This document shows positions 11,617 to 50,036 of a stretch of DNA of 64,000 nucleotides, in pieces. A program made the position numbers and the translations under genes. Below the pieces are notes generated by a model that searched no databases, had not been told where the DNA came from, and worked only from the letters and a program-made list of their open reading frames with translations. Positions within the stretch are counted from its first letter, which is position 1. Each line of letters opens with the position of its first letter. Location: the IMG/VR virus record IMGVR_UViG_3300048609_000040; one strand, 5' to 3'. This DNA is from an uncultured virus (IMG/VR IMGVR_UViG_3300048609_000040). Its lineage: Duplodnaviria > Heunggongvirae > Uroviricota > Caudoviricetes.

Positions 11617-12003
11617 ATGCCGTTGACGCCTGACGAGTTGAGCCTTCTTGGGATTATCCGCGAAGGTGGTTCGTTATCAAAACACGAACTAGTTACCTAC
11701 TCATGCCAGAACGAGATCACCATCGATCGTCATCTGAAGACGTTGATACAGAAACGCCTCGTCGAAGCTGACGAACACGGAAGCTACAAGGTCTTGGAGT
11801 TCATAGATCTGATCAAAGAAGCGTGTCGGCGGACGTTGGGCGTAGAGGTTTACGATGCGATGGTTGGCTGTCGGATCCCTCTACCAAGGCTCGTCGAGTA
11901 CTGCGCGCAAGAGATGTTCACTTACCCAGCTCGATATGCTGCTCCAGATTGTGAAACGATTAGGCAAGGTATGATTGCGTTGCTTGAAAAAGGAGAGCTT
12001 TGA
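11617..12003 (+). CDS. winged-helix protein
   Basis: LS..EL......TIDRHLKTL.QK.LVE...G.Y pattern. Confidence 0.55.
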   Translation: MPLTPDELSLLGIIREGGSLSKHELVTYSCQNEITIDRHLKTLIQKRLVEADEHGSYKVLEFIDLIKEACRRTLGVEVYDAMVGCRIPLPRLVEYCAQEMFTYPARYAAPDCETIRQGMIALLEKGEL

Positions 12004-18445: not shown

Positions 18446-19053
18446 AAGAGTATCCGTCAATCTCGCGTGCGTTTCGGGAGATCCCCAATGCATACATCTT
18501 CGATAAGCTCGACGGATCGTCTATGCGTTCCGAGTGGAACAGAAAACGCAGTTGGTACAAGCACGGTAGACGTCACGGACTACTTGATGACTCGAACACA
18601 GCTCTTACTGCCGTTCCTGTAATGTTTGGCAAGCTCTTCGCCGAACCTTTGGCGCGTGTGGCAACTAACAACAGGTGGGACCATCTCATCATCTTCTACG
18701 AGTTCTGGGGTACGAAAAGCCTCGCAGGTTTGCACTCCTCGGACGATGAAAAACATCTCACATTGTTCGACGCAGCGGTCGACAAGAAGGGTATCCTTGG
18801 ACCCAGGGATTTTCGCAAACTATTCGAGAACAACGTCGAAACAGCTGCCTTTCTGGGGATCCACAACTACACGCGAGGATTCGTGGAGTCAGTACGTCTT
18901 GGGCAGGTAGAAGGGATCACTTTCGAGGGTGTCGTTGCTAAGGCTGGAGAAGGTCACCATCTTGTCTATGCCAAAGCTAAAACACAACAATGGATCGACA
19001 AGGTTCTACAGATCTACGGTGCGAAGCAGGGCCAACAGTTGGTAGACAGCTGA
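18442..19053 (+). CDS. Rnl2-like RNA ligase / covalent nucleotidyltransferase
   Basis: KEYPSI N-terminus, motif I DKLDG, FYEFWG, FDA, EGVV, KAK. Confidence 0.75.
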   Translation: MKEYPSISRAFREIPNAYIFDKLDGSSMRSEWNRKRSWYKHGRRHGLLDDSNTALTAVPVMFGKLFAEPLARVATNNRWDHLIIFYEFWGTKSLAGLHSSDDEKHLTLFDAAVDKKGILGPRDFRKLFENNVETAAFLGIHNYTRGFVESVRLGQVEGITFEGVVAKAGEGHHLVYAKAKTQQWIDKVLQIYGAKQGQQLVDS

Positions 19054-24584: not shown

Positions 24585-25487
24585 ATGCCTAGCACCATAC
24601 AACGACTCGCCGAGCTTGGCTTGATTACGCCACCAGGCTTTCTGGCCGCTAACACTCATTACGAAACGACGATGGGGTCAGTTGCGTATGGAGTTGCGAA
24701 CGATACCAGCGACGTGGATGTTTACGGATTCTGTATCCCACCCAAAGACGAAATCTTTCCTCATTTGCGAGGCGAGATTGTCGGATTTGGACGGCAGAAG
24801 GACCGTTTCTCGCAATACCAACAGCACCATATCAAGGATGCTGCAGCAGGCAAGCAGTACGACGTGACAATCTACTCGATCGTCACCTACTTCCAGTTGT
24901 GCATGGAGAACAACCCGAACATGATCGACAGTTTGTTCACACCACAGCGCTGTGTGCTGCATTGCACGCAAGTCGCCAACATGGTACGTGAACACCGTCG
25001 AATGTTCCTTCACAAGGGAGCATTCCACAAATTCAAGGGCTACTCGTTTAGCCAATTGCACAAGATGCGCACGAAGGATCCCAAACCAGGATCGAAAAGG
25101 GCCGAACTGCGCGAGAAGCATGGATTTGACAGCAAATTCGCGTATCACGTAGTACGGCTGCTCAGCGAAGTCGAGCAAATCCTCGTCGAGGGTGACATCG
25201 ATCTTCAGCGCAACCGTGAGCATCTCAAGGCCATCCGTCGCGGCGAAGTGTCCGAGGAGGAAATACGCAACTGGGCCTCTGACAAGGAGCGGCAACTGGA
25301 ACAGCTGTACGTGGACTCGCCACTGCCGTACGGCCCCGATGAAGCCAAGATCAAGGAACTGCTTCTACAATGTCTCGAAGCGCACTACGGACGGTTGGAA
25401 GGCATAATCACAGCTGAAGATGAACTTGTTGGGGCCTTGAGAAACATACGTGACGTAGTTGATCGATGTAGATCAAAACTGCTATAA
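24585..25487 (+). CDS. Pol-beta-fold nucleotidyltransferase, RlaP/NrdC.11-like
   Basis: GS.AYG....SDVD, NPNMID.L, FKGY, K.AYH..RLL motifs. Confidence 0.85.
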   Translation: MPSTIQRLAELGLITPPGFLAANTHYETTMGSVAYGVANDTSDVDVYGFCIPPKDEIFPHLRGEIVGFGRQKDRFSQYQQHHIKDAAAGKQYDVTIYSIVTYFQLCMENNPNMIDSLFTPQRCVLHCTQVANMVREHRRMFLHKGAFHKFKGYSFSQLHKMRTKDPKPGSKRAELREKHGFDSKFAYHVVRLLSEVEQILVEGDIDLQRNREHLKAIRRGEVSEEEIRNWASDKERQLEQLYVDSPLPYGPDEAKIKELLLQCLEAHYGRLEGIITAEDELVGALRNIRDVVDRCRSKLL

Positions 25488-26790: not shown

Positions 26791-27166
26791 AGGTGACATG
26801 ATGAAGACAGGCAAGAGAGAAGTCGCCGAGTCCAGGGTCATCACGGCAAGGTTGCTGGTTTCCGTTCGAGTAGACCTGGAATTTGACGAGGACGGTAACG
26901 GTCACGTTCTGTTTGCGGAATTGGCTCAGCAACAGATGATCAGCCCGCGTGATGTTGAGGAAGCATTGGACACTGATGGCGAGCTGAGCGTATTAGACAA
27001 AGATGAACAGACATGAAGAATATCAATAGAAAGCTACACCTTCTACACCTCACGCGTGAGACCTTGCGTGCCCTTGGAGAAGACAATCATCTCAGGGATG
27101 CAGGCTGCGCGCAGACCTGTCATCACAGATGTTCAAGCTACAGCTATGTTGGTTGGGTCTGTTGCT

Positions 27167-28360
27167 ATGGCGCTTGATTATTTGAAGGCGCGAAACGGCA
27201 TGCTGATCCCGATGTGGGTCGCAGCCAATGAGGTCGAGTCCCAAGCACTCGATCAGCTCCGCAATGTTGCTGAACTACCTTGGGTTGTCCGTCTGGCTGC
27301 GATGCCCGACATCCACGCCGGCAAAGGCGCAACAGTCGGGACCGTGATTGGTATGCGAGACGCTGTCTCGCCATCCGCTGTGGGCGTTGATGGAGGCTGT
27401 GGGATGGGCGTCGTGCAAACCAACCTCGATGCCGGCAAGGTCACGCGCAAGCTCGCCAAGCTACGTGCTGAGATCGAAGCCCGCATCCCAATCGGCTTCT
27501 CCAGTCACACAACACCGGCTTACACTGCCGCGCCAGGAGAACTAGCACGCGAAGCGGAACAGCTCTTCGCCGAATTCGGCTCGCTTACGCCCGAAGTACA
27601 GGCACACATCGACCGTGCGAAGCACCAACTCGGGACCCTTGGCGGCGGCAACCACTTCATCGAGTTGAGCCTCGACGCTGACAAAAACGTTTGGCTTATG
27701 CTGCACTCGGGGTCGCGCTGGATTGGCAAGGAGCTAGCCGACACGCACATCTTGAAGGCGATGGCGCTCGGGCATAACGCAGCGCTGCCGGACAAGGCGC
27801 TCGCGGTGTTCCTTGCTGACACACCTGAAATGCACGCCTACTGGAACGATCTAACTTGGGCGCAGCAGTACGCAGCGCTCAACCGTAAGCTCATGCTCTG
27901 GCTTTACGAAGAGGTGTTGCAGGAGTTCTGGCCTGGTCTTCAGTTCACCTCGGAGCCCATCTGGTGCCACCACAACTATGCGGAACAAGAGATCCACGAC
28001 GGCGACAAGCTGTATGTGACTAGGAAAGGCGCAATCCGTGCCCAAGCAGGTGACCTGGGGATTGTGCCTGGCGCAGTGGGCGCACCGAGCTACATCGTCC
28101 GAGGGCGTGGCTGCGCTGAAGCACTTCAGTCCGCACCACACGGCGCCGGCCGGAAGATGTCACGGGGTGCAGCCAAACGGAAATTTACTCAAGCTGACAT
28201 CGATGAGCAGACCGCAGGCGTCGAGTGCAAGAAGGACAAATCCATCCTCGACGAGTTACGCGGTGCCTACAAGCCAATCAAGCGGGTCATAGCTAACAGC
28301 GCTGAGCTAGTAGAAATCGTTGTCCAACTCGATCCCGCACTGTTGTGCGTGAAAGGTTGA
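27167..28360 (+). CDS. rtcB: RtcB-family 3'-phosphate/5'-OH RNA ligase (copy 1)
   Basis: MPDIH.G.G, VGVDGGCG, GTLGGGNHF, HSGSR, HHNY, RKGA, HGAGR, DE..AYK, VKG; start may lie further upstream (frame open from 27056). Confidence 0.95.
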   Translation: MALDYLKARNGMLIPMWVAANEVESQALDQLRNVAELPWVVRLAAMPDIHAGKGATVGTVIGMRDAVSPSAVGVDGGCGMGVVQTNLDAGKVTRKLAKLRAEIEARIPIGFSSHTTPAYTAAPGELAREAEQLFAEFGSLTPEVQAHIDRAKHQLGTLGGGNHFIELSLDADKNVWLMLHSGSRWIGKELADTHILKAMALGHNAALPDKALAVFLADTPEMHAYWNDLTWAQQYAALNRKLMLWLYEEVLQEFWPGLQFTSEPIWCHHNYAEQEIHDGDKLYVTRKGAIRAQAGDLGIVPGAVGAPSYIVRGRGCAEALQSAPHGAGRKMSRGAAKRKFTQADIDEQTAGVECKKDKSILDELRGAYKPIKRVIANSAELVEIVVQLDPALLCVKG

Positions 28361-31387: not shown

Positions 31388-32827
31388 ATGAAGCTGAAGT
31401 CGCAAGTATTGGGCACGTTTGCGTTCCCAAAGGACTTTGAGGTCGTCCAGGACGCGGTCAGCCCGGCCACGTTGAACAAGTGCGACATCACGGGCGGCAA
31501 CAACAAGTACTATGTCATCGAGAAGCACATCTCGAAGGACGGCAAGAAGTTCCGGCTCTACAGCCGGTACGGTCGCGTCGGGCATCACGGTACCGAGGAG
31601 GAGCGTATCCCGTTGCAGGATCGCGGCTCACTCGACGCCGCGTTCAACAGCCTGTTCGCCGAGAAGACCAGCGACCGCAAGGGCTACACCCTCGTCAAGA
31701 CAGCAACGTCATCCATGGGTTCCACTGTGGCGCAGACATTGATCCTGTCCGACGACGTGAAGAAGGACAAGGTCATCACGACCGACGGTAACAGCAAGTG
31801 CTCAGCGCTCAACCTGCACACCTCCATTGAGAAGCTCGTCACCCGCCTATACAACGAGGCAGGCCAGGCGGTACGCAACCAGCTCTCCGGCACGCTCAAG
31901 ACCACGGTCGAGAACCCGTTGGGGACGCTGACCCTAGCACAGATCGACGAAGGCCGCCGCGTTCTCCAGGCGACCCAATCACTGCTCACCAAAAAGCCTG
32001 ACCTCAAAGACTCGATCGATAAGACGCTACTCGACCTGTCGAACCAGTTCTACTCGGCGATCCCGCAGACCATGGAGCTACGCCCACGCCCGTCCGAGGG
32101 CAAGACTCGACAGGATGCTTGGCTACGCAAGATGTGCCTCAACAATGCTGAGATTCTCGACTCCAAAGAGGACTTGCTGCAGCTGCTGTCAGACGTACAA
32201 GGTACTGTTGGTGGGTTCGCAGCCACCAACGTCAGCATGAAGTATCTGGAGATCGGCTGCACCTATGACTACTTGGAGCCGAAAGACGACACACGGCAGC
32301 GTATTGAGTCGTATGTTCAAGAGAGCCGATCCAAGCATCACGACTGGAAGTGTACAGTCCTGAACGTCTGGAGGTGCGAGGTAAAGGGTCAGAAGGCCAA
32401 ACACGTTCCAGTAATGAAGGATGTTGGTAACATCAAGCCACTATTCCACGGTTCGGGGCCACAGAACATCCTCGGCATCTGTAAACACGGACTTTTGCTG
32501 CGGCCTCCTGGCGTTTATGTGACCGCATCGATGTTTGGTAACGGCGTTTATTTCGCCGATCAATCAAGCAAAAGTGAACAGTATGCTTTTGGCCGATACG
32601 GCGGCGGACGCGGCCACGGCGACAGTTTCTTTATGTTCGTCGCTGACGTTGCGCTTGGTAAAATCAAGAAATACCAAGCTGCACAAACACATCTGACCGA
32701 GCCGCCTACAGGCTATGATAGTGTTCAGGGTGAGAAGGGTCATTCGCTTGCACACAACGAGTTCATCATCTACAACCTAAAACAACACGTTCTTCAATAC
32801 TTGATCGAGTTCACAACAAGACACTAG
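31388..32827 (+). CDS. poly(ADP-ribose) polymerase-like ADP-ribosyltransferase (WGR + regulatory + catalytic domains)
   Basis: NNKYY...YGRVG...EKT (WGR); PLGTL...QI..G...LSNQFYSAIP (regulatory); LFHGS, MFGNGVYFA..SSKS..Y, NEFIIY (H-Y-E). Confidence 0.92.
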   Translation: MKLKSQVLGTFAFPKDFEVVQDAVSPATLNKCDITGGNNKYYVIEKHISKDGKKFRLYSRYGRVGHHGTEEERIPLQDRGSLDAAFNSLFAEKTSDRKGYTLVKTATSSMGSTVAQTLILSDDVKKDKVITTDGNSKCSALNLHTSIEKLVTRLYNEAGQAVRNQLSGTLKTTVENPLGTLTLAQIDEGRRVLQATQSLLTKKPDLKDSIDKTLLDLSNQFYSAIPQTMELRPRPSEGKTRQDAWLRKMCLNNAEILDSKEDLLQLLSDVQGTVGGFAATNVSMKYLEIGCTYDYLEPKDDTRQRIESYVQESRSKHHDWKCTVLNVWRCEVKGQKAKHVPVMKDVGNIKPLFHGSGPQNILGICKHGLLLRPPGVYVTASMFGNGVYFADQSSKSEQYAFGRYGGGRGHGDSFFMFVADVALGKIKKYQAAQTHLTEPPTGYDSVQGEKGHSLAHNEFIIYNLKQHVLQYLIEFTTRH

Positions 32828-34762: not shown

Positions 34763-35383
34763 ATGTCATTGAAGAATACGATAATGTCGGAGTTGCAGGC
34801 GAGCCCAGACTGGTTAACGGTCACGCAATTCATTGACCGTATTCGTATCGCCCTGCCCACACACGCCTTACCTATACATTACGCAACTGTCGCCCGTGCA
34901 TTGCGCAAACTGCGCGCGGAGGGAAAAGCGGTGGCGCGATGGGCACCCAACAGTCAAGCACATCACGCCTGCCGTGAGTGGGCGTTCGTGCGCACACCAC
35001 AATCGCCAGTATCAGCACCAGTTGCATCTATTGGAGACATCATGCAGAAGCCGACTCTTGTTGCTGCCATCGAAGCTGTGATCAACGAGTTTGTTGCCGC
35101 GCAGCGCGTGTTTTCAGCGCACGACGTGACGAACGAGGTGCGAAAGCGTGCTGCTACAGTCGATCCCGTAGAATGTGGAACCGTCCACGTAGACGGCAAA
35201 GACACACCGCGGGTTGTCCACGAAGAGGTCCGCGACTTCATCCACGACTTGTATGGAAACGGGAAGATCAACGGCTACGAGCGTAACCACAACGGTTCGT
35301 ATTGGGTCTACAATCCTAGCAAACCCACTGTTGCTTCTTCTGCTACTGATTCAGCTAGTTACGACGGAACGTCCTCGTTGTAA
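34763..35383 (+). CDS. hypothetical protein, wHTH-like N-terminus
   Basis: 206 aa ORF. Confidence 0.65.
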   Translation: MSLKNTIMSELQASPDWLTVTQFIDRIRIALPTHALPIHYATVARALRKLRAEGKAVARWAPNSQAHHACREWAFVRTPQSPVSAPVASIGDIMQKPTLVAAIEAVINEFVAAQRVFSAHDVTNEVRKRAATVDPVECGTVHVDGKDTPRVVHEEVRDFIHDLYGNGKINGYERNHNGSYWVYNPSKPTVASSATDSASYDGTSSL

Positions 35384-35742
35384 CACAAGACGTAATCGAA
35401 ACAATGCGTCCAAACATGCAAGAATGGGTAGTGGTCACCGATCTGAAAATGCTCCACGAGCTTCAGCGTCACGGAGTTAGGTCAAAGCATGTCTGGTCTG
35501 CGGAGGATCGTACATATCGTTATTGTGTACCGGCGTGGGCGCTGCAATTTTGGCAGCGTGTTGAGCACACCAAGTACAGATCGGCTCTAAGGTGGGCATT
35601 ACGTCGAGCCGCGTGGGATACGCAGTTTCGTCGCGCGCTGGAGGCAACCTCTGCCAACAATTGTGTAGAGAACTTCGTCCTGCAACAGCGTTTCGTCCTG
35701 GAACAGCGCTTTTAGCAGCAAAATCAACAACATGTAGAGAAC

Positions 35743-35810
35743 GATCGTAGTAACGATCTTACTTTTGTGGTTTGTTACGGGTTGATTTTTGTCATACCAT
35801 TTGTTAGAGT
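35743..35810 (+). promoter_or_regulatory. GATCGT-N4-ACGATC palindrome plus TGTCATAC box and TG-T-TAGAGT -10
   Basis: Palindrome 35743-35758, box 35790-35797, -10 at 35805-35810. Confidence 0.65.
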
Positions 35811-35825
35811 GTAGCTGTTTGGACA

Positions 35826-36114
35826 AGATTGAATCGATACCAGATCATCGAGGGTAGTGCCTGGGAAAGCCCTCGTGCAGAGGTCAACTGATGGCGGACC
35901 TCCAAGAGTCAAAGGCGGACTCTATGAGTGCCGGCCTAGCCGTTAAACCAACCGTTCGGTGATTACCAGGACAGCAGAACTGTTGGTTACACGGTAGCCA
36001 TCATGAGTAAGAGCCAGCCCTCGTACCGGAGCGATCCTGTCTAGACCCCACGGAACTCGGTGGGTGAGGATTTCACAATGATGGTACGAGGGCGCCGGGA
36101 AACCGGTTTCAATT
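35826..36114 (+). ncRNA. candidate about 290-nt structured RNA or 5' leader
   Basis: Many perfect stems incl. 11-bp GCCCTCGTACC/GGTACGAGGGC; directly downstream of a predicted promoter. Confidence 0.65.
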
Positions 36115-36118
36115 ACAG

Positions 36119-36565
36119 ATGGAAGAAAGTAAGCATATGGTTCCACCAACACGATCAACTGATGCTTGGTTGTCTCGACCTGACGCAGCCAAAGCACTCG
36201 GAAGTAGTACCAGCTACATTGGCACGTTGTCGCGTCGGAAGAAGATCCGACGCAAACGCTTTCAGGACGTACCTGGGCGCTACGTGTACTCGAAGGCAGA
36301 CGTTCTTGCGCTAGCTGCGGAAAGAGAACAGTCGAAGCTGCGGTCGAAGCCGCAGTCGGAGGCGTCATTACCGCTGATTCGTGTGACGAAAGCGGCTACG
36401 TCTCCAGCGTTGAAGACGTTCGAGGTACATGAAGTCAGCACTCGGATGCCTCCCAAGACCGCACAAACAGCCGTTCAAAAGGCGCGTTGGGTGTTCGAGG
36501 GCGTCGATATGGGCGTCATCGCCACCGATGACGCGTTGGGATTACTACGTAACGTCCTCAAGTAA
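36119..36565 (+). CDS. excisionase/MerR-like HTH DNA-binding protein
   Basis: WLSRPDAAKALG.S...I..L.R...I...GRYVYSKADV. Confidence 0.65.
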   Translation: MEESKHMVPPTRSTDAWLSRPDAAKALGSSTSYIGTLSRRKKIRRKRFQDVPGRYVYSKADVLALAAEREQSKLRSKPQSEASLPLIRVTKAATSPALKTFEVHEVSTRMPPKTAQTAVQKARWVFEGVDMGVIATDDALGLLRNVLK

Positions 36566-36576
36566 CGGAGCATTGA

Positions 36577-37230
36577 ATGGCGAACAAGCTGCTGACTGGC
36601 CTGTCGTGGGCCAAAATTGAGAGTTTGTGTCATACTCTTCGTAGGAACCAGCGTACCGAAGATCTGAACCGTGCTCTTCTCTTCCGCACGTTACGAGACG
36701 ACAAGCCGTGGACGGATCGCAGACGCTACGCGTCACAAGCAGCCTTCGACCAGCTCTCATGGTACTCCTTCAACCAAGTTCTCCTCCTACGACTAGGCGA
36801 GAATATTCGAGAAGTACACAATACGCTGTGTGCCCTCGACGTGTTTGGTGAAAAGGCATTCAAGGAGTACGGACGGGATGCCCTAGTCCGCATCTACAAC
36901 CGAACACAGAATCCGCGGCTACATACGCGAATCTTATATACCCTGGGGCACGGAGGGTACCCGTTCTCGATCGCGGCACTCACCAACATCCTCAACGAGC
37001 TTGTGCCGTTGAAGAAGCACTCCGATCTGGTACAGACACTCCGAGAAAAGAACCATCTACTCAAAGCAGAAAACAGCAAGCTGAAGTCGCAAATCAAGGC
37101 ATTGAAGAGGGAGAATGAACGTCTAAGACGTGAGCGTGACGCACGCGTGGAGTACGTTTGCACAAAGAACCACGCACACAAAAACGGCCACGTCTGTACC
37201 AAACCGTCGAAGAACCGTCAGAAAAAGTAA
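36577..37230 (+). CDS. hypothetical protein with C-terminal coiled coil
   Basis: 217 aa ORF, GGAG RBS. Confidence 0.65.
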   Translation: MANKLLTGLSWAKIESLCHTLRRNQRTEDLNRALLFRTLRDDKPWTDRRRYASQAAFDQLSWYSFNQVLLLRLGENIREVHNTLCALDVFGEKAFKEYGRDALVRIYNRTQNPRLHTRILYTLGHGGYPFSIAALTNILNELVPLKKHSDLVQTLREKNHLLKAENSKLKSQIKALKRENERLRRERDARVEYVCTKNHAHKNGHVCTKPSKNRQKK

Positions 37231-37240
37231 AGGCACCACG

Positions 37241-37714
37241 ATGGATGTAAGGATCAAGAAAGCGATCAACAAGTCAGTCGAGAAGGCAGTCGCAGTTCAG
37301 TCGCATCGCGCAATCAAGACTGTAGCCAAGCGTACAGTCAACCAGTTGATCAAAGTAGAGGTCAGACGAGCGGTCCAAGCAGCTGTCGAGAAGGCAGTCG
37401 ACGCGCGGATGATAGAAGTCCTTGCGGATGTGGCGGCGCTACGCGCCAAATTCAACACCGAAGGAACGGTCAAGGTCAGCGGCGCCCTGAGCCCCGAGAA
37501 GGTGCAGGGGCTGCTGGTTGACATCCTTGACCCAATCCGTGGTGTGCGACAGGTGGGGCGCCACTGGGTCTGTGTAGCCTGCGAGCACAAGTTCGACACA
37601 GCCCGCAGCGCGTCAGCCCATACGAGACATTGCCAGGCCGCATCAAAAAGACCCCAGCAGCGCAGACATGTGGTAGAAAGGGAGGCAAGCAAAAAGCGTG
37701 TCGCCAGGAGCTGA
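37241..37714 (+). CDS. basic protein with C2H2-like zinc finger
   Basis: CVACEHKF......AHTRHC. Confidence 0.6.
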   Translation: MDVRIKKAINKSVEKAVAVQSHRAIKTVAKRTVNQLIKVEVRRAVQAAVEKAVDARMIEVLADVAALRAKFNTEGTVKVSGALSPEKVQGLLVDILDPIRGVRQVGRHWVCVACEHKFDTARSASAHTRHCQAASKRPQQRRHVVEREASKKRVARS

Positions 37715-39953: not shown

Positions 39954-40772
39954 GTGTACAAAGTAAGACAGTTGGAAAATGTCATGGATCTAGATAAGCT
40001 AAACTCCCTCACCAAGTACCCGTCTATACCGACCTACCACGCGCTCAGAGAGAAGGGTCGCATTGCAGCTGATGCTCAGCCGCAGGTATCGTTCTGCGAT
40101 GAACAAGCCCTCACCACCGAAGATGAACAAGACCTCATCATCACCGAAAAGGTGGATGGTTGTGGTGGGCGCATCATCGTGCTACCAGATGGCGATTGGT
40201 TGATCGGATCACGTGAAGAGCTACTTACAGCACGTGGCGACCGCATCCCAAATAGTGTGTTACGAATTGTCGAAGCGCTTCAGCCGCTCGCCAACTTCGT
40301 ATGCGAGGGGTTCGTCAGGTTCGTCCTCGAAACCACAGCTGTAGTCGTGTTTGCGGAGGTCTACGGCGGCTCAGTCACCAAAAACTCAAAGCAGTATACA
40401 CAAACGAAACAACTCGGCTACCGCGTCTTTGACATTGCCTATGTGCCTTTGGAGATGCTAGACAAAGACCGTGCTGAAATTGCATCTTGGCGCGATCACG
40501 GAGGGCAGCGGTTTGTCGACGAGGTTGCGTTAATCAGATACGCGACTACACTCAACTTTGCTCTTACACCACGTTGGGCTGCGAGTACTTTACCACCAAA
40601 CCGACCTACAGATGTTGCAACCTGGCTCTACCAGTTCAGGTACAGCCAATGTGTTCTCGACACAGGAATGGAAGGCGCAGCTGAGGGTGTCGTCGTCCGA
40701 ACACCAACACGTTCCAAGATCGCCAAGATCCGCTTCGACGACTACAAAAGGATTGCCGAACCGTGGCGATGA
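39954..40772 (+). CDS. Rnl2-like RNA ligase
   Basis: TKYPSIPTYH, TEKVDG, IGSR, AEVYG, FDI, EGVVVR, KIAK. Confidence 0.85.
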   Translation: MYKVRQLENVMDLDKLNSLTKYPSIPTYHALREKGRIAADAQPQVSFCDEQALTTEDEQDLIITEKVDGCGGRIIVLPDGDWLIGSREELLTARGDRIPNSVLRIVEALQPLANFVCEGFVRFVLETTAVVVFAEVYGGSVTKNSKQYTQTKQLGYRVFDIAYVPLEMLDKDRAEIASWRDHGGQRFVDEVALIRYATTLNFALTPRWAASTLPPNRPTDVATWLYQFRYSQCVLDTGMEGAAEGVVVRTPTRSKIAKIRFDDYKRIAEPWR

Positions 40773-41294: not shown

Positions 41295-41498
41295 ATGCCT
41301 GACATCACGATGTGTTACGGTGAGGCGTGTCGCTTACGTGAAACTTGTTACCGCTACAAATCCAAACCGACCAAAGAGCGTCAACCCTACTCCACAATGC
41401 CGCCGATCGAGATCGAAAACGGCTTGCGAACGGTTTGTGAATATTACGATCACATAGACGAGCCGTCGACGAAACCGGCTAGTGAAGCGGTTGACTGA
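41295..41498 (+). CDS. small Cys-rich protein (MPDITMC family, copy 1)
   Basis: Paralog of 43978-44160. Confidence 0.75.
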   Translation: MPDITMCYGEACRLRETCYRYKSKPTKERQPYSTMPPIEIENGLRTVCEYYDHIDEPSTKPASEAVD

Positions 41499-42295
41499 TG
41501 CGCCTAGCATGGGCAACAGACACTCACTTCGATTCTGCGCATTCTTATGCTGTCGCTGGCTTCTTCGCTGAGTTACGAAAAGAGCACGCTGATGCGTTGC
41601 TTATCAGCGGTGACATCGCTAACGCTCACTGGTTACGGGACACACTCATCAACATCGATGCTGATTTCGATGGACCTATCTACTTCGTGTTGGGTAACCA
41701 CGATGCCTACGGAAAGAGCATAGCTATTGCTCGCAGCATAGCTAACGAGACAGCACAATCCTCAAAAACCCTCTACTGGTTAGACGGCAACGATCCGATC
41801 TCACTCACGCCTACTGTTGGCCTGGTAGGTGTAGGAGGTTGGGCAGACGGACGCGCAGGAGACTTTTTTGCAGCTGGAAGAATCCTGCTTAACGACTACG
41901 TAGCCATTGCAGAGCTGAAAAACAAAGACAACAACCACCTCTACAAGAAGCTTCAAGCTTTAGGTCGCGAAAACACTAAAGCACTGCGTCAAAAACTAAC
42001 CCGCTTACCTCCACAATGGGACACCGTCTATGTCCTGACACATGTTCCACCCTGGCGAGAGGCTGCGTGGCATCAAGGCAAACCGTCAGACGATGTTTGG
42101 GTGCCGCATTTTTCTTGTATTACTATGGGCGAAATGCTTGATCAATGGGCCGACGAGCATCCCGAAGTACACACAGTTGTTTTGTGTGGCCACACCCATG
42201 GGGCAGGCTACATAGAAAGGCGATCCAACTTGGTTTGTTGGACCGGAGAAGCTGAGTACGGTAGTCCCCGAGCTGCCCGTTGGATTGACATCTAA
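41498..42295 (+). CDS. calcineurin-like metallophosphoesterase (Icc/CpdA-like)
   Basis: DTH, GDI, GNHD, THVPP, GHTH. Confidence 0.9.
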   Translation: MRLAWATDTHFDSAHSYAVAGFFAELRKEHADALLISGDIANAHWLRDTLINIDADFDGPIYFVLGNHDAYGKSIAIARSIANETAQSSKTLYWLDGNDPISLTPTVGLVGVGGWADGRAGDFFAAGRILLNDYVAIAELKNKDNNHLYKKLQALGRENTKALRQKLTRLPPQWDTVYVLTHVPPWREAAWHQGKPSDDVWVPHFSCITMGEMLDQWADEHPEVHTVVLCGHTHGAGYIERRSNLVCWTGEAEYGSPRAARWIDI

Positions 42296-43799
42296 GAAGA
42301 CACTGATGAGATTGTCACACGCAGCCTTACGAAGGATTGACGATTTTCGTGTTGAGGTAACCAACCCACATACACCCATCACGCTTTTCGCCAACGATCA
42401 AGTAGAGATCGAAGCGGCAGCCGTCGATCAAGTACTCGATCTCGCTAGGCTAGCACAGACCATAGAAGACAGGGTGTGGTGCAGCTTGGTTCTACCGCAC
42501 CCTGTTCGATTGCTCTCTGATCAATTTGCACTTTCGCGCATCGTCCTTACGCCGGACTTCCACAAAGGCGCAAAGATCCCGATCGGAACCGTAGCCGAAA
42601 CACGCGGTTTTGTAATACCACAAGCCGTGGGTAACGATGTCGGGTGTGGCATGCGGCTACTCGCTACTGACATAGCATGGGCCGAGCTAACACCAATACT
42701 GGAACGTCTTGCAGCGCCTCTTCGCTACGTGTTCTTCCAAGGTGGCCGTGACATACCAATGTCTCCAACGCAACGTGAAGCGTTGCTTCGTGATGGTCTT
42801 TGGGGATTACACGAGACTGCCAAAGGCATGAATGCGGGTGTGTGGCAATATTACACGCGTTCTGAGGAAGAGCTAAACCACGCACATTCGCAAGGAGTGT
42901 TTCCTGCAACAGGTGTGTTCGCCTTCGACGACTACATTCGCAGTTCAGGAAAAGTAGACGGGCGAGACTCCCAAATAGGATCTGTAGGAGGAGGCAACCA
43001 CTTCGTAGAGCTACAGGCTGTGTTGAAGACCAGTACGCTCGCGTACGACTGGGGTTTGAAACTTGGAACAGTAACAATCATGGTGCATTCAGGTTCGGTC
43101 GGGTTAGGCCACCTAGTAGGCGGGCACTTCGTCGACGAGGCTAAGAAGATCTTCCCAAAGGAGCTGAAGAAACCAAGCTTCTATGTTCTTCCCACAATCG
43201 GAAAGCACAAAAAGCTAGGTCTGCAGTACCTGGACGCCATGCACAACGCCGCAAACTTTGCCTTGGGCAACCGTTTGATGCTAGGACTAATGACCGTCCG
43301 CGTGCTGTCAGAGGTACTTGGGCGGCGTATCAAAACACGCTTGGTGTACGATGCACCCCACAACCTCGTTTGGCCCCAAAAAGACGACACGTATCTACAC
43401 CGCAAAGGCGCATGCCCTGCTGGGCCGCCAAACAACTACTTTCCCTCCGGGCACCCCGTGATAATCCCAGGTTCAATGGGTGCTGAAAGCTACGTCCTTG
43501 TGAGCGCTGCAAATGCTGAAGCCTTACACAGCGCGTGTCACGGAGCCGGAAGGGCAGTGTCACGGGGAGCTGCACGCCACGCTGATGACGTAACGCCACT
43601 GCATATCGTTACGCCTGTTGATCCCAACGCGCCCGAGATTAGAGGGCGGTCCGATGTACTAGCCGAGTATCGAAGACGGATAAAAGAAGAAGCACCAGGC
43701 GCCTACAAGCCGATAACACCCATCATCGATACGGTTGAGGCCGCAGACATCGCACGTCAGGTGGCTACGCTGCAGCCTCTCCTGACGATTAAGGGATGA
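42285..43799 (+). CDS. rtcB: RtcB-family RNA ligase (copy 2, longer subtype)
   Basis: TPDFHKG..IPIG, GNDVGCG, GGGNHF, HSGS, PHN, RKGA, PGSMG, HGAGR, EEAPGAYK, IKG. Confidence 0.95.
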   Translation: MTSKKTLMRLSHAALRRIDDFRVEVTNPHTPITLFANDQVEIEAAAVDQVLDLARLAQTIEDRVWCSLVLPHPVRLLSDQFALSRIVLTPDFHKGAKIPIGTVAETRGFVIPQAVGNDVGCGMRLLATDIAWAELTPILERLAAPLRYVFFQGGRDIPMSPTQREALLRDGLWGLHETAKGMNAGVWQYYTRSEEELNHAHSQGVFPATGVFAFDDYIRSSGKVDGRDSQIGSVGGGNHFVELQAVLKTSTLAYDWGLKLGTVTIMVHSGSVGLGHLVGGHFVDEAKKIFPKELKKPSFYVLPTIGKHKKLGLQYLDAMHNAANFALGNRLMLGLMTVRVLSEVLGRRIKTRLVYDAPHNLVWPQKDDTYLHRKGACPAGPPNNYFPSGHPVIIPGSMGAESYVLVSAANAEALHSACHGAGRAVSRGAARHADDVTPLHIVTPVDPNAPEIRGRSDVLAEYRRRIKEEAPGAYKPITPIIDTVEAADIARQVATLQPLLTIKG

Positions 43800-44758: not shown

Positions 44759-45940
44759 ATGAAACTCGAAGACTACCTTCAGGCTAACGACTGGCGTGCG
44801 GTGGGAAACAACACGTGGGTCAACCGAAAAAGTGAAACCCTTGTGCTTGATCCACAAGATCCCGCGATCAAAACACGTCGCAAACTGATTGCGCTTGGAC
44901 TTCCTTCCGACCTGGAGTTCACCACAGCACCCCCTCCTGATCCGGTTGTAACCGATCCCATTGAAGTCTTCGTACCTGCACCGTTGGCTCCGCAAACGGT
45001 ACCCCAGGAAGTGCAGGATAGCCTACAGGCGTATGTTGCAACTGTAATCGCACCACAAGACGTGCCACCCGAAGTACAAGATCAGTTGCAGACACACGCG
45101 ACAACAGTCGCCAACCAAAAGGTCGACGAACTGATCGAGACCGAGCGACTCGACCCTTCGTTTGTGGCAGCCTGCACGAAGGTGCGTCTGCAGGTTAAGA
45201 CCCAGCTACGCTTGATGGCGACAAGTCTTGATATAGACAGTCAAGCAGACGAGGCCGTCAAAGCCTTCGAGAAGCAGTTTGTAGAGCAAAAGGCCGCGCG
45301 CCTCGCCGCAGAAAAGGCTGCTAGAGAGGCTGAGGCCGCACGGCTAGCAGAGATAGAGGCTGCGCGGTTGGCTGCTGAAGCTGCGGCGGCTAAGGCTGCT
45401 GCTGAAGCGAAAGCTGCTGCTGAAGCAAAAGCCGCAGCCGAGGCCGTTCATCTAATCGTAGATCAGGCTGTTGCAGAACAATTGGCTCGGCCGTTGTTCG
45501 TGACCGAACAGGTAGCAGCCGATCCTGAACAGGTATGTTCTCCTTCGTACTGTTGGGACAGAGAAGATTCTTGTAGTATCTGCAACAGAGCTGAATCCGA
45601 ACAGGTAGCCGAACCCATACAGGCAGGTACATCGGCCGCCGAGACCGAACAAGCAGTTGCCCCTGAACAAGTGACTGAACCCATAACTAACACCGAAGAA
45701 GACGCTGTTGAGATTGTCTTTGAGTTTACAGACGCTGTTGAGCCAGACGAACCGCCCACAGCTGTTGCGTTGTCCGAGGAAGAAATCCAATCTGCACTTG
45801 AGCAAGGTTACGAAGAGCGCAAGGCAGCCGAGGACAGAACTCAGCTTGTGGAACCAACCGATGAGCCCGCTGTAGAACCAGCCGATGCGCCCGCTGTAGA
45901 ATCCAAAAAGACTAGACGGCGCAGGCACAAACGACCCTGA
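44759..45940 (+). CDS. Ala/Glu-rich low-complexity protein
   Basis: AAEAKA repeats, acidic tail, basic C-terminus; TACGAT 6 nt upstream of ATG. Confidence 0.75.
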   Translation: MKLEDYLQANDWRAVGNNTWVNRKSETLVLDPQDPAIKTRRKLIALGLPSDLEFTTAPPPDPVVTDPIEVFVPAPLAPQTVPQEVQDSLQAYVATVIAPQDVPPEVQDQLQTHATTVANQKVDELIETERLDPSFVAACTKVRLQVKTQLRLMATSLDIDSQADEAVKAFEKQFVEQKAARLAAEKAAREAEAARLAEIEAARLAAEAAAAKAAAEAKAAAEAKAAAEAVHLIVDQAVAEQLARPLFVTEQVAADPEQVCSPSYCWDREDSCSICNRAESEQVAEPIQAGTSAAETEQAVAPEQVTEPITNTEEDAVEIVFEFTDAVEPDEPPTAVALSEEEIQSALEQGYEERKAAEDRTQLVEPTDEPAVEPADAPAVESKKTRRRRHKRP

Positions 45941-45965
45941 TCGTTTCTACGATCTGTGATAGGGT
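45939..45965 (+). promoter_or_regulatory. GATCGTTTCTACGATC palindrome plus TG-A-TAGGGT -10 (leaderless)
   Basis: -10 ends 6 nt before ATG 45972. Confidence 0.65.
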
Positions 45966-46550: not shown

Positions 46551-46748
46551 GCGCTATCCGCTACTTCGACATGCACCCGCGTAGTTAGACTTCAGCAAAT
46601 GTAGCTACTCGCAGCTCCCAAGCGAGACGACCATGATCGTTGTTACGATCACCAGCTAACTTCTCCAACTGCAAGCCAGGCAACTTTCTTTGTCGTTGCT
46701 CGGTGGTAGTATCGGATCCCTCGTCGGTACACCAACCAGGAGAGCGCC

Positions 46749-49700
46749 GTGGATTTGCAGCAGCCGGACCTGACCGCGATTGGTAGTAGTGTCCTCGCGA
46801 AGCGATACTTGGCTCGAAACGAACAAGGTGAGTTAATAGAGACCCCTCAAGAACGCTTCGTTGCGGTGGCCAAACACGTAGCCCAGGCCGAAGCGGCGTA
46901 TGACATAAACCCTGAAACCGTGTGGCCCGTCTTCTACAAGATGATGGCTGCGCGAGACTTCGTGCCAAATACGCCCTGCCTCGTCAACGCAGGGCATCCA
47001 AACGGGCAACTTTCTGCATGTTTTGTATTACCTATTGAAGATTCAATGGAACGAATCTTTCAAACACTAAAAGACACAGCGTTGATCCATAAGTCGGGTG
47101 GCGGTGTCGGATCCTCGTTTAGTCGCATACGTCCTGCCAACGACTTCGTACAGACAACTACAGGGCTGGCTAGTGGACCAATTAGTTTCATGCGCGCGTA
47201 TAACAACGTAACCGAATGCGTCAAGCAGAGCGGTGTACGACGTGGCGCAAACATGTCTATATTACGTTGTGATCATCCCGATATACTTGCCTTCATAGAT
47301 TGCAAGCTCAAACCAGGTGAGCTAAACAACTTCAACATCAGTGTCGGAATCACCAACGCCTTCATGCAAGCGTTGGAAGAAGACACCGAATACCCACTAA
47401 TCAACCCACGTACGGGAAAACCAACTTGCACGGTACGTGCGCGAGAAGTCTTCGATCGGATCGTGCGCAACGCGCACTTCTCGGGTGAGCCTGGCTTGTT
47501 CTTCCTCGATCGCGTTAACGAATCAGATCCAGTGGCTACTCCTGATGATCCTATCGAAGCTCCGAATCCGTGCCAGCCAGGTTGGGCAACCGTTCTCACC
47601 CCCAAAGGCATCCGTACCTTCGACGAGGTTGATATTGGATCGACGATTTGGAGCGGTCAGCGTTGGGTGCAAGTAACTAATAAGGTCAAGACAGGTGTGA
47701 AACCTGTCTACCGCTACCACACACGTACCGGTTCCTTTGTAGGCACGTCTAACCACCGCATCGTTTCAGAGGGCACCAAGATCGAAATCGGAGACGCGTC
47801 TAACGTCGATCTTGCATTAGGCCAACTAGGAGATCCTAACGACAAAATCTCACCGCAAGACATCATGGACGGTTTGGTAATCGGCAACGGTATAACGCAA
47901 GCAAATAGTGGCGCCCCATTCCTCACTATCAGAGAAGCCGATGTATGCTGCTACCGCAAGAGTGAAATTGCCGAACTCATTCTGGAACATTGTCCAACCG
48001 TGCACGACGAAGCTTGGCGTGTAGCAACAACCATTAATGAAGTATCAACGAACGCCTTCGAGCGGATTGTACCAGCACAATTCCTATACGGTACCGCACA
48101 GAAAATGCGAGGATTCCTGCGTGGATTGTATACAGCAAACGGATCCACTCACGGAAATCGGATCACGCTGTCGACTAACGTAAACATCGTCCGCGATGTT
48201 CAGATGATGTTGTCCAGTCTTGGCATTCCTTCACACTATACTATCAACAAGGCGTGTGGTTGTGTTTACTACTATCTCAACATTGAAGCGTGGGCGTGTA
48301 AACGATTCCACAACTTGATTGGCTTTATCCAACCCGAACACGGCTTTATCCAGCCCGAGCACAATCACTGTCTCAACGTCGCATGTAATATCAGACTAAA
48401 ACGGACTTATGACATCGTCGATGTCGAGTATCTTGGAGAAGAAACTGTATATGCCATCACTGTCGACGACGAAGAACATACGTACTGGACTGGCGGACTT
48501 CACGCATCGAATTGTGGTGAGCAGCCACTGCACCCATACGACGCTTGTGATCTAGGTTCGATCAACCTAGCCAACTTCTTGTCAGCAGGCAAAATCGACT
48601 GGGACCGTCTTGGATCAACCGTACGTACCGCTGTCAGGTTCCTCGACGATGTCCACGACGTGAATCACTACCCTATTCCTGAGATCCAAAAGCGGACACA
48701 GAACAATCGGCGTATTGGGTTGGGTGTGATGGGCTGGGCTGACGTGTTGATCGACATGGGCATTCCTTACGCCTCACAAAAAGCACTTGATCTGGCTGAG
48801 CTGGTCATGGCGTTCATCAACATAGCCGCGATCAAAGCCAGTGAAGAGTTGGCTACTCATCGAGGACCGTTCCCAGTCTTTGCCAGCTCAAAACATGCAA
48901 CTAATGGAAAAAAGCCGCGCCGCAATGCCACAGTAACGACTATTGCGCCCACCGGATCGATCTCGATCATCGCTGGCTGCTCTAGTGGAATCGAGCCACT
49001 CTTCGCCATCGTTCAAACACGCAAACAAGCGGACATGACGATGGTCGACGTCAACCCACGATTCGTTGCTGTTGCAAAGCGTGAAGGCTTTTACAGCGAA
49101 ACACTCATGGAGCGGGTACGCGAGACAGGAACAGTCAAAGACTGTCCCGAGGTGCCTGATCATTGGCAACAAGTCTTTGCGGTCGCCAACGAGATTCCCG
49201 TTGAATACCACGTCAAGATGCAAGCAGCTTTCCAGCGCCATGTAGAATGTGCTGTGTCAAAAACCGTCAATCTGCCTCAAACCGCGCCCGTTGAAGACGT
49301 CGAACGGGCCTACATGTTAGCCTGGCAAGAAGGCTGTAAGGGCATCACGGTCTACCGCGACAAGTGCCGAGAGAATCAAACACTCAGCCTCGGCGCAAGC
49401 TCCGAGAAGAAAGCCGAACCAAAAGCCGAACCAGCAAGACCTGAACTGCATCCTTTGCCTACAGAACCGTACGACGCCAAGGTCTGGTACGTCGAAACAC
49501 CAGCCGGCAAACTCTCCGTGAAGTTAGGTTTAGACCACGGACGCCCCTTCGAGGTCTGGTACGAGGTCAGCCGGCCTGGACGAGCCATCACAGCCCTCTC
49601 CGATGCGCTAGCCCGTCTAGGATCTCTCGTCCTACGGATGGACAGCCCCATCGACCCGATGCGCCGTGTTGAATTGATCATAGACCAGTTGACTGGTCTC

Positions 49701-50036
49701 GGTGGTGGAGATTCGGTTGGCTTCGGGCCAGGCCGTGTACTCAGTGTACCTGATGGTGCTGCTAAGGCGTTGCGTACGCTGCTGGATGCTGTCAGCAAGG
49801 ACGAGCCGGCTTCTACGACAGTCTCCACGCCGATTGTCGTCATATCTGCTGAAGGCACCTCTAAGCCTAGCAACGGGCACAACGGCAATGGGCACAACGG
49901 CAACGGCAACGGACACAACGGCAACGGGCATCATCACAACCTGAGAGCTGGCGACATTTGCCCCGAGTGCCACCAAGCAACGCTTTACCACACCGAAGGT
50001 TGTAGTATGTGCCCGTGTGGGTTTGCACATTGCTAG
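46749..50036 (+). CDS. nrdJ: class II (adenosylcobalamin-dependent) ribonucleotide reductase, intein-containing
   Basis: RYL, PNTP, LSACF, GGGVG, RRGANM, NP(intein)CGEQPL, TIAPTG, SKTVN, KGITVYR; C-terminal TSCPD-like domain and zinc ribbon; AGGAG RBS. Confidence 0.92.
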   Translation: MDLQQPDLTAIGSSVLAKRYLARNEQGELIETPQERFVAVAKHVAQAEAAYDINPETVWPVFYKMMAARDFVPNTPCLVNAGHPNGQLSACFVLPIEDSMERIFQTLKDTALIHKSGGGVGSSFSRIRPANDFVQTTTGLASGPISFMRAYNNVTECVKQSGVRRGANMSILRCDHPDILAFIDCKLKPGELNNFNISVGITNAFMQALEEDTEYPLINPRTGKPTCTVRAREVFDRIVRNAHFSGEPGLFFLDRVNESDPVATPDDPIEAPNPCQPGWATVLTPKGIRTFDEVDIGSTIWSGQRWVQVTNKVKTGVKPVYRYHTRTGSFVGTSNHRIVSEGTKIEIGDASNVDLALGQLGDPNDKISPQDIMDGLVIGNGITQANSGAPFLTIREADVCCYRKSEIAELILEHCPTVHDEAWRVATTINEVSTNAFERIVPAQFLYGTAQKMRGFLRGLYTANGSTHGNRITLSTNVNIVRDVQMMLSSLGIPSHYTINKACGCVYYYLNIEAWACKRFHNLIGFIQPEHGFIQPEHNHCLNVACNIRLKRTYDIVDVEYLGEETVYAITVDDEEHTYWTGGLHASNCGEQPLHPYDACDLGSINLANFLSAGKIDWDRLGSTVRTAVRFLDDVHDVNHYPIPEIQKRTQNNRRIGLGVMGWADVLIDMGIPYASQKALDLAELVMAFINIAAIKASEELATHRGPFPVFASSKHATNGKKPRRNATVTTIAPTGSISIIAGCSSGIEPLFAIVQTRKQADMTMVDVNPRFVAVAKREGFYSETLMERVRETGTVKDCPEVPDHWQQVFAVANEIPVEYHVKMQAAFQRHVECAVSKTVNLPQTAPVEDVERAYMLAWQEGCKGITVYRDKCRENQTLSLGASSEKKAEPKAEPARPELHPLPTEPYDAKVWYVETPAGKLSVKLGLDHGRPFEVWYEVSRPGRAITALSDALARLGSLVLRMDSPIDPMRRVELIIDQLTGLGGGDSVGFGPGRVLSVPDGAAKALRTLLDAVSKDEPASTTVSTPIVVISAEGTSKPSNGHNGNGHNGNGNGHNGNGHHHNLRAGDICPECHQATLYHTEGCSMCPCGFAHC
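47571..48512 (+). mobile_element. intein (314 aa) with LAGLIDADG-type endonuclease remnant
   Basis: Starts CQPGWATVLT, block B TSNHR, ends GGLHASN before the extein Cys; LAGLIDADG-like DGLVIGNG and RGLYTANG. Confidence 0.92.

What the first reader, a model, noticed from the sequence alone, without database searches (positions are those of the whole stretch)
35826..36114. About 290-nt multi-stem RNA behind its own promoter
Seen: stems CGAGGG/CCCTCG (35849/35870), GAGGTC/GACCTC (35880/35897), AGAGTC/GACTCT (35905/35918; the latter two loops both end GGCG), a nested GCCGT..AACCA/TGGTT..ACGGT domain, an 11-bp GCCCTCGTACC/GGTACGAGGGC helix enclosing GATCCT/AGGATT and CCCAC/GTGGG, and a possible end-closing ATTGAA/TTCAAT pair. 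It lacks tmRNA, RNase P and group I/II hallmarks I can recognise. It precedes an HTH gene. Inference: a novel phage ncRNA or complex leader.
Basis: partly seen in the sequence, partly recalled or inferred. Interest (0 to 1): 0.7.

Follow-up and report, generated by a model that had tools for sequence, protein, structure and literature searches.

The report
Orphan structured leader before phage HTH operon
A 420-base non-coding stretch in an uncultured large phage probably holds the promoter and a folded 5' leader of a small regulator operon, but nothing yet shows that the fold matters.

Summary
They lie in the only large non-coding gap of the window, 35716-36136 (421 nt), in a tightly packed genome of a large uncultured phage.

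**For a structured RNA**
- The 289-nt stretch folds better than shuffles (z -3.6).
- Two long hairpins (35939-35995, 36017-36093) and a GNRA hairpin are predicted with probability near 1.

**Against, or weaker than it looks**
- The stretch ranks only 27th of 2124 same-size windows.
- The three 5' hairpins and the 11-bp helix are not individually beyond chance.
- The end-closing pair depends on the chosen ends.
- The promoter call is at chance level.

**Comparisons**
- Rfam gives no match, and there is no coding signal.
- No homologue was found. This includes three related jumbo-phage records and the only retrievable orthologous operon (L006/L007), whose leader is about 109 nt and unstructured.
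- No RNA run holds the region, so neither covariation nor expression could be tested.

**Verdict:** most likely a lineage-specific structured 5' leader of the HTH operon. A function-less spacer remains a serious rival.

The parts
35743..35768 (+). Palindromic hairpin GATCGTAGTAACGATC plus a T-rich tail. It is terminator-like and marks the end of the upstream gene block. It is also one of five exact intergenic copies of GATCGT-N4-ACGATC.
   Evidence: It is the only terminator-like site in 35300-36700, against 1.1 expected. For the motif, 16 strand-matches were found against 1.44 expected, with 0 of 100 shuffles reaching that number.
35770..35850 (+). AT-rich stretch that probably holds the promoter. 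It contains the sigma-70-like site TGGACA-17-GATCAT (35820-35848) and the inverted repeat TCGAT-N8-ATCGA (35834-35851).
   Evidence: GC falls to 0.35-0.38 here, against 0.52-0.60 in the folded part. The promoter scan finds 1 site against 0.8 expected. In my own scan, 3 of 15 + strand sites fall in gaps, against 0.68 expected from gap length. The block AATCG-N8-9-GATCATCGA recurs before the orthologous HTH gene of L006/L007.
35849..35875 (+). Hairpin H1, CGAGGG/CCCTCG. Its 5' arm overlaps the -10 region and start-site area of the candidate promoter.
   Evidence: Sequence; pair probability 0.43-0.47.
35880..35902 (+). Hairpin H2, GAGGTC/GACCTC, with a loop ending in GGCG.
   Evidence: Pair probability 0.71-0.72; kept in the centroid fold.
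35905..35923 (+). Hairpin H3, AGAGTC/GACTCT, with a loop ending in GGCG. It is a look-alike of H2.
   Evidence: Sequence; pair probability only 0.12-0.15; GGCGGAC occurs twice, 21 nt apart.
35928..36005 (+). Central domain: a long irregular hairpin H4 (core 35939-35995) with 3x3 and 1x1 internal loops.
   Evidence: Pair probabilities 0.88-1.0. The domain gives z -2.59, with 5 of 300 shuffles as good.
36017..36093 (+). 3' long hairpin H5: an 11-12 bp perfect base, a large internal loop and an inner stem-loop.
   Evidence: Pair probability 1.0 for the base. The hairpin gives z -3.73, with 1 of 300 shuffles as good. The 11-bp helix is one of three in the window.
36094..36107 (+). Short GAAA-capped hairpin H6 (GCCGG/CCGGU), followed by TTTCAATT.
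   Evidence: Pair probability 1.0. The scan does not call it a terminator.
36108..36136 (+). Purine-rich linker carrying the likely ribosome-binding site. It is predicted to be mostly unpaired.
   Evidence: Unpaired probabilities are 0.25-0.99 over 36112-36136, and 0.87-0.99 over 36124-36129.
36137..36565 (+). HTH gene of the excisionase/MerR-like type. The start may instead be 36119. It is the first gene of a conserved three-gene operon.
   Evidence: PF12728 at E 0.0022 and phrog_2474 at E 1e-5. Homologues begin at the MxMPPT residues. P0001, 142 aa and 100% identical, fits a start at 36137.
36577..37230 (+). 217-aa coiled-coil protein, the second gene of the operon.
   Evidence: 49% identical to the gene that follows the HTH orthologue in L006. 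The next gene (37130-37714) is 37% identical.

Best explanation
The gap 35716-36136 is the boundary between two same-strand gene blocks of a large uncultured phage.

**Layout.**
- The first ~50 nt carry a terminator-like palindrome that closes the upstream block.
- The next ~80 AT-rich nt carry the promoter of the downstream operon (HTH regulator, 217-aa coiled-coil protein, 194-aa protein).
- The remaining ~280 nt are the 5' untranslated leader of that operon's mRNA.
- The leader folds into two long irregular hairpins (H4, H5), a GNRA-capped hairpin (H6) and one to three short hairpins (H1-H3). The ribosome-binding site stays open.

**Proposed action.** I think the leader acts in cis. It could be a 5' stabiliser or double-strand-RNase processing platform, or a landing site for a regulator, and so would set the level or timing of operon expression. 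I do not think it is a metabolite switch or a trans-acting RNA.

**Shown:**
- the region is non-coding;
- the composition switches from AT-rich to GC-normal;
- predicted folding is better than shuffles;
- the downstream operon is conserved;
- there is no room for a separate promoter between the fold and the gene.

**Inferred:**
- that the region is transcribed;
- where transcription starts;
- that the fold forms in vivo;
- that it has any effect.
For: - It is the only large gap in a tightly packed window: 403 nt to the first ATG. The other apparent gaps in my crude gene call are at most 268 nt, and that one is covered by the ORF 11617-12003.
- There is no coding signal.
- GC is 0.35-0.38 in 35730-35849 and then 0.52-0.60 in the folded part.
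- H4, H5 and H6 have pair probability about 1.
- The + strand folds better than the - strand.
- Only 5-22 nt lie between H6 and the start codons, so the HTH mRNA must include the fold.
- The RBS region is mostly unpaired.
- HTH plus the two following genes are syntenic in L006/L007, at 34%, 49% and 37% identity. A short block, AATCG-N8-9-GATCATCGA, lies upstream of the HTH gene in both phages.
- A related phage (L002; PARP 64% identical) has an analogous layout in a roughly syntenic place: terminator, then a 491-nt strongly folding gap (z -5.91), then a small Cys-rich gene.
Against: - No homologue of the fold was found anywhere, so there is no covariation.
  - The orthologous operon in L006/L007 has only a 176-nt gap. 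About 109 nt of it follow the shared block, and these fold worse than shuffles (z +2.13).
  - Covariance models of the central and 3' domains hit nothing in three related phage records, one of them 100% complete. In the window and L002 they hit nothing beyond the source itself.
- The L002 gap shares no significant sequence with this one: 5 shared 7-mers against 9.06 expected, and a chain score of 70 against 53 +/- 8.6.
- In-window rank is 27 of 2124, not extreme.
- The 5' hairpins are not significant (z -1.73).
- The promoter match is at chance level, and three different start sites are arguable.
- There is no terminator after the fold and the RBS is not sequestered, so no standard regulatory mechanism is visible.
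- The alternative pairings offered by the repeated CCCTCGT boxes are 6-9 kcal/mol worse than the optimum.
Confidence: 0.4

Rival explanations
1. The gap is a lineage-specific spacer with no RNA-level function. It could be a decayed gene or an insertion remnant between the promoter and the HTH gene, and its predicted structure would be within what this genome produces by chance.
For: - 26 other windows of the same size, mostly coding, fold as well or better after GC correction.
- The 11-bp helix is one of three in the window.
- The 5' hairpins give z -1.73.
- The orthologous operon manages with a short, unstructured leader.
- A complete related genome (G002) lacks both the HTH gene and the region.
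Against: - The genome is otherwise tightly packed, and this is by far its largest gap.
- No remnant of a protein is detectable.
- The whole-gap z is -3.81, with 0 of 100 shuffles as good.
- Two long hairpins have pair probability about 1.
Confidence: 0.3
2. The region encodes a discrete non-coding RNA of about 260-290 nt that acts in trans. It would either end at the GAAA hairpin and its U-rich tail, or be cut out of the leader. The HTH operon would be expressed by read-through.
For:
- H6 followed by TTTCAATT could be a weak terminator.
- H2 and H3 are look-alike hairpins with the same GGCGGAC element, as in protein-binding RNAs.
- The phage carries an unusually large RNA-repair gene set.
Against: - The end pairing disappears when the whole gap is folded.
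- The scan calls no terminator there.
- No paralogue or complementary target beyond chance was found in the window.
- No Rfam family matches.
- No homologue was found in related phages.
Confidence: 0.15
3. The element works as DNA. It would be a cluster of operator or binding sites (the CCCTCGT boxes, the GATC-containing palindromes) for the HTH protein or another phage regulator, or a replication or packaging site. On this reading the hairpins are by-products of inverted binding sites.
For: - Three of the window's 10 CCCTCGT sites lie within 225 nt of the gap. A fourth, CCCTCG, is on the opposite strand at 35849.
- The palindrome GATCGT-N4-ACGATC recurs at five intergenic sites.
- An HTH gene is adjacent.
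Against: - The inverted repeats have very unequal spacings (7, 11, 15 and 55 nt), which suits hairpins better than dimer-binding sites.
- Two helices contain G-U pairs that exist only on the + strand RNA.
- There is no GC-skew turn at the site and there are no iterons.
- The region is not AT-rich beyond 35850.
Confidence: 0.1

Closest known systems
Long structured 5' leaders and intercistronic hairpins of phage mRNAs, such as the RNase III processing hairpins of T7-like early transcripts (recalled from general knowledge, not from a call)
   Same: - Irregular long hairpins with internal loops lie at the start of a transcription unit.
- The ribosome-binding site is left open.
- No ligand-type switch is evident.
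   Different: No processing site, RNase III dependence or transcript has been shown here. There is no sequence or family relationship.
Orphan structured-RNA candidates found in long, GC-rich intergenic regions of bacteria. This is the DIMPL/Breaker-laboratory approach (PMC8723152, PMC6429828, PMC8632094); I saw only the search listing and the opening of the abstracts.
   Same: It was picked out by the same two criteria: an unusually long gap whose GC content is not depressed.
   Different: Those candidates are accepted only when covariation among homologues is found. Here none could be retrieved.
Phage immunity leaders with repeated complementary boxes, of the P4 CI RNA and P1 c4 type (recalled; no hit to any Rfam family)
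   Same: A leader holds direct repeats of one box (AGCCCTCGT at 35868 and 36016) and their complements (35849, 36086). In principle these allow alternative pairings.
   Different: - The alternative folds are 6-9 kcal/mol worse than the optimum.
- No terminator is coupled to them.
- There is no family match and no evidence of immunity function.

Membership tests
Any Rfam 15 family (4227 models) | A covariance-model score at or above the family's gathering score | tested here: not met
   Across the whole window, only two tRNAs at 60337-60486 reach gathering score. In 35600-36300, at E up to 10, the only match is a nematode snoRNA model at 12.9 bits against a gathering score of 35.
tRNA / tmRNA | Cloverleaf or tmRNA architecture detected by ARAGORN | tested here: not met
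   ARAGORN finds only tRNA-Asn and tRNA-His at 60337-60487.
Group I intron | A match to the intron model, and interruption of a gene whose exons join in frame | tested here: not met
   The group I intron model gives no match at E up to 10. The upstream ORF ends with its own stop, and the HTH homologues start at the same N-terminal residues as the window's gene, so no gene is interrupted.
Riboswitch or transcription attenuator | An expression platform: a terminator/antiterminator pair, or sequestration of the ribosome-binding site | tested here: not met
   No terminator-like site follows the fold. The RBS region is mostly unpaired. The alternative pairings are 6-9 kcal/mol worse than the optimum.
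Riboswitch or transcription attenuator | A conserved aptamer with covariation across homologues | not testable with these tools
   No homologue of the leader was retrievable.
Type III toxin-antitoxin antitoxin RNA | A tandem array of near-identical repeats of about 36 nt upstream of an endoribonuclease toxin gene | tested here: not met
   There are only two loosely similar hairpins and no tandem array. The downstream gene is an HTH protein.
Bacterial or phage Y RNA (YrlA-type) of Ro/RtcB RNA-repair loci | A match to the family model and a neighbouring Ro (TROVE) gene | tested here: not met
   No Rfam match. No TROVE-domain protein appears among the 25 window proteins scanned with Pfam. The remaining genes were scanned only against PHROGs, or not at all.

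The most novel reading that the evidence does not exclude
The ~260-nt fold (H2-H6) is a new, lineage-restricted class of structured phage RNA that was inserted into the leader of a conserved regulator operon. It could be a processed RNA that binds a phage or host protein through its twin GGCG-loop hairpins and long irregular helices. One possibility is a decoy or regulator linked to this phage's exceptional RNA-repair arsenal (two RtcB, RlaP, RNA ligases, PARP).
Probability: 0.1. Interest if true: 0.6.

Novelty: new member of a known kind. Interest (0 to 1): 0.3.

Why it matters
If the fold is functional, it would be an example of a regulatory or stabilising leader RNA from the almost unexplored large phages of soil and groundwater. 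It sits at the head of an operon that begins with a DNA-binding regulator, so it may mark a timing switch in infection. As it stands it is one orphan sequence without comparative or expression support. Its present value is as a candidate to revisit when relatives or metatranscriptomes become available.

Tried and rejected
**Homologue searches that found nothing useful**
- blastn of 35700-36600 against 50,697 phage records: no match.
- tblastn of the HTH protein against the same records: no match.
- HTH protein, or its 3-sequence alignment, against other collections:
  - viral contigs: none;
  - genome contigs: none;
  - metagenome contigs: only an identical copy, L001, 601 of 601 bases the same.
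- The protein database holds only two distant full-length HTH homologues, at 39% and 48%. The exhaustive profile search gives 91 proteins at E up to 0.001, but only about 8 cover both domains. Their DNA could not be fetched.
A 6-sequence one found L006/L007, which are identical to each other over 1101 bases.
- The 217-aa neighbour found the same two contigs again.
- PARP and the 206-aa protein family found three related phage records, L002-L005. None was found in genome contigs.
  - The apparent gaps in L004 and L005 that I inspected (L004 8870-9886, L005 9444-10369) hold tRNA genes, with minus-strand ORFs as well in L004, and are not this RNA.
  - The records have no DNA match, HTH match or covariance-model match.

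**Sequencing runs**
- 20 runs hold part of the stretch. No RNA holder is listed.
- Contigs laid from 4 of the 20 runs:
  - X8 covers 35639-36558 with 0 differences.
  - X10 covers 35872-36302 with 0 differences.
  - X8 shows 12 differences over 36607-37000.
  - So there are no variants in the fold to test. The identical block also includes the HTH gene, so it does not single out the RNA.
  - X12 and X13 have no cover over the fold.

**Other checks**
- No paralogue of the gap exists in the window.
- The earlier-findings index has nothing by place, by sequence or by words.
- No whole genome is held for the window.
- A second literature search failed on a term-syntax error and was not repeated.

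**Ideas considered and dropped**
- An intron, a retron RNA and a type III antitoxin (see the membership rows).
- A small leader peptide (GTG at 35767, 15 codons): no support.
- A MITE-like insertion: the 'terminal repeats' would lie inside the promoter spacer.

Full report
**Context.** The window is part of a large, uncultured phage genome.
- Genes are almost all on the + strand and tightly packed.
- They include:
  - two RtcB ligases, an RlaP nucleotidyltransferase and RNA-ligase-like proteins;
  - an ATP-dependent DNA ligase, a sigma-like factor and a eukaryote-type PARP (WGR, PARP_reg and PARP domains);
  - dCMP deaminase, ribonucleotide reductase and two tRNAs.
- No isolated phage resembles it at the DNA level. 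RtcB is below 60% identical in all 490 phage records it matches.
- A protein identical to one of the window's is on record on a 145-kb contig.
- Twenty soil, groundwater, wetland and sediment runs hold at least part of the stretch.

**The observation.**
- They lie in 35716-36118, which runs to 36136 if the HTH gene starts at its second ATG, as its homologues and the database entry P0001 suggest.
- This is the largest non-coding gap in the window. The next apparent gaps in my crude gene call are 268 and 263 nt, and the first of these is covered by an ORF listed.
- All three + frames are full of stops.
- No + strand ORF in the gap exceeds 29 aa, apart from two that merely overlap its edges.
- The overlapping ORFs have no family match.

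**Is the structure more than chance?** Moderately.
- The 289-nt stretch gives z -3.64 on the + strand and -2.69 on the - strand. The whole gap gives z -3.81.
- Against all 2124 same-size windows of the window, after regression on GC, the + strand ranks 27th and the - strand 153rd. It is in the tail, but it is matched by many coding windows.
- The signal sits in the central hairpin (z -2.59) and the 3' hairpin (z -3.4 to -3.7). The three short 5' hairpins give z -1.73.
- H4, H5 and the GAAA-capped H6 have pair probabilities near 1. H2 has 0.72, H1 0.47, H3 0.15 and the GATCCT/AGGATT helix at most 0.07.
- The 11-bp perfect helix alone is unremarkable, being one of three in the window.
- The end-closing helix depends on where the ends are put.

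**Anatomy of the gap.**
- 35743-35758 is a palindrome with a T-rich tail, and is the only terminator-like site nearby.
- The same palindrome type, GATCGT-N4-ACGATC, occurs at five intergenic places in the window, far above chance. It may therefore be an operator or a processing hairpin rather than a terminator.
- GC then falls to 0.35-0.38 (35730-35849) and returns to 0.52-0.60 in the folded part. This is the pattern expected for a promoter followed by a transcribed structured RNA.
- The scan finds one sigma-70-like site, TGGACA-17-GATCAT at 35820-35848, at chance level for the region.
  - In my own scan, such sites are enriched in gaps: 3 of 15 fall there, against 0.68 expected from gap length.
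  - If this promoter is used, the 5' arm of H1 is not transcribed. The RNA from 35855 still folds with z -2.95.
- Only 5-22 nt separate H6 from the candidate start codons, so the HTH gene must be transcribed through the fold.
- The RBS region is predicted to be largely single-stranded.
- The box CCCTCGT occurs three times within 225 nt, out of 10 in the window, with a related copy on the other strand at 35849. This allows alternative pairings, but they are 6-9 kcal/mol worse than the optimum, and no terminator is coupled to them.

**Known families.**
- Rfam 15 gives nothing at gathering score or at E up to 10.
- ARAGORN finds nothing in the region.
- No gene is interrupted, because the HTH homologues start at the same residues.
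- Downstream lies an HTH protein, not an endoribonuclease toxin. No protein scanned or 87 matched a reverse-transcriptase family.

**Relatives.** This was the decisive question, and it stayed open.
- The HTH protein has two distant full-length homologues among 5.8 billion proteins. About eight two-domain relatives appear in the exhaustive profile search. Their DNA could not be fetched.
- The metagenome collection holds only an identical copy of the region.
- Contigs from other samples are identical over the fold, so there are no variants to test.
- Three related jumbo-phage records share the PARP (64-67% identity) and a 206-aa protein (about 30% identity). None has the HTH gene, the gap DNA, or a match to covariance models of the central and 3' domains. 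One of them is a complete 210-kb genome.
- One of these records, L002, has its own 491-nt gap two genes after the 206-aa homologue.
  - It folds strongly (z -5.91) and lies between a terminator and a small Cys-rich gene.
  - It shares no significant sequence with the window's gap and is not matched by the model.
  - It is therefore an analogue at best.
- A wider HTH alignment found the orthologous operon in L006/L007. HTH is 34% identical, the next gene 49% and the third 37%.
  - There the upstream gap is only 176 nt.
  - It shares with the window a short block, AATCG-N8-9-GATCATCGA. The 9-mer alone has blastn E 1.1.
  - The ~109 nt between that block and the start codon fold worse than shuffles, z +2.13.
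  - So the long structured part is not a conserved feature of this operon. It is specific to the window's lineage.

**Reading.**
- The gap most likely holds the promoter and a ~280-nt structured 5' leader of the HTH operon (confidence 0.4).
- I favour a cis role: stabilisation, processing, or a binding platform for a regulator. The reasons are that the gene must be transcribed through the fold, the RBS stays open, and no switch-like platform is visible.
- A function-less, lineage-specific spacer is a serious rival (0.3), given the unstructured orthologous leader and the unexceptional in-window rank.
- A discrete trans-acting RNA (0.15) and a DNA-level site cluster (0.1) are less likely.
- No expression data exist. 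No RNA holder is listed, which says nothing either way.

**Literature.** One full-text search was made (I saw the listing and the openings of the abstracts only). It returned the general discovery pipelines for structured RNAs in long GC-rich intergenic regions, and nothing specific to this element. I make no claim about what is or is not in print beyond that single search.

**Verdict.** This is a real non-coding region with credible but unproven RNA structure. It is best read as a leader rather than a stand-alone ncRNA. It belongs to no known family, and no comparative or expression support is obtainable with the data at hand. Interest is modest.

Noticed in passing
window 35743-35758, 45939-45954, 46635-46650, 53019-53034, 53065-53080: The palindrome GATCGT-N4-ACGATC occurs at five sites, all intergenic. 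There are 16 strand-matches at up to 1 mismatch against 1.44 expected. At 45939 and 53065 it is followed by TGTGATAGG and then a start codon 17-23 nt after the palindrome. It is a candidate phage operator, promoter element or RNA-processing hairpin.
   Followed up: partly
window 46749-50036: The ribonucleotide reductase large subunit (1095 aa) carries a LAGLIDADG_3 domain at aa 453-525 inside the barrel domain, and its PHROG matches are split (12-221 and 582-1095). This is probably an intein with a homing endonuclease.
   Followed up: partly
window 31388-32827: A eukaryote-type poly(ADP-ribose) polymerase with WGR, PARP regulatory and catalytic domains. It is conserved at 64-67% identity in three IMG/VR large-phage contigs.
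   Followed up: partly
window 24585-25487, 27056-28360, 39954-40772, 42285-43799, 18442-19053, 10609-11190, 41498-42295: An unusually rich RNA-repair set in one phage: two RtcB ligases, an RlaP nucleotidyltransferase, two RNA-ligase-like proteins and two phosphoesterases.
   Followed up: no
L002 13901-14391: A 491-nt non-coding gap in a related phage. It starts with an intrinsic-terminator-like hairpin, folds with z -5.91, and ends with a terminator-like hairpin plus a U-run just before the AGGAG and ATG of a 78-aa Cys-rich gene. No Rfam match.
   Followed up: partly
L006 1533-2548 (identical in L007 over the aligned part, 2000-3100): Eight copies of a ~35-40-nt repeat containing the hairpin CTCGAT-N9-ATCGAG, spaced 55-472 nt apart, lie upstream of the orthologous HTH operon. 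The window has a similar inverted repeat, TCGAT-N8-ATCGA, at 35834-35851 inside the candidate promoter. No Rfam match in 1900-3050.
   Followed up: partly
window 8890-9753: A tyrosine-recombinase (phage integrase family) gene in an otherwise lytic-looking large phage.
   Followed up: no
window 58584-58612: The best sigma-70-like promoter match in a gap, TTGACA-17-CATGAT at 10 of 12 positions. Its spacer contains AATCGAT, as does the candidate promoter at 35820-35848.
   Followed up: partly
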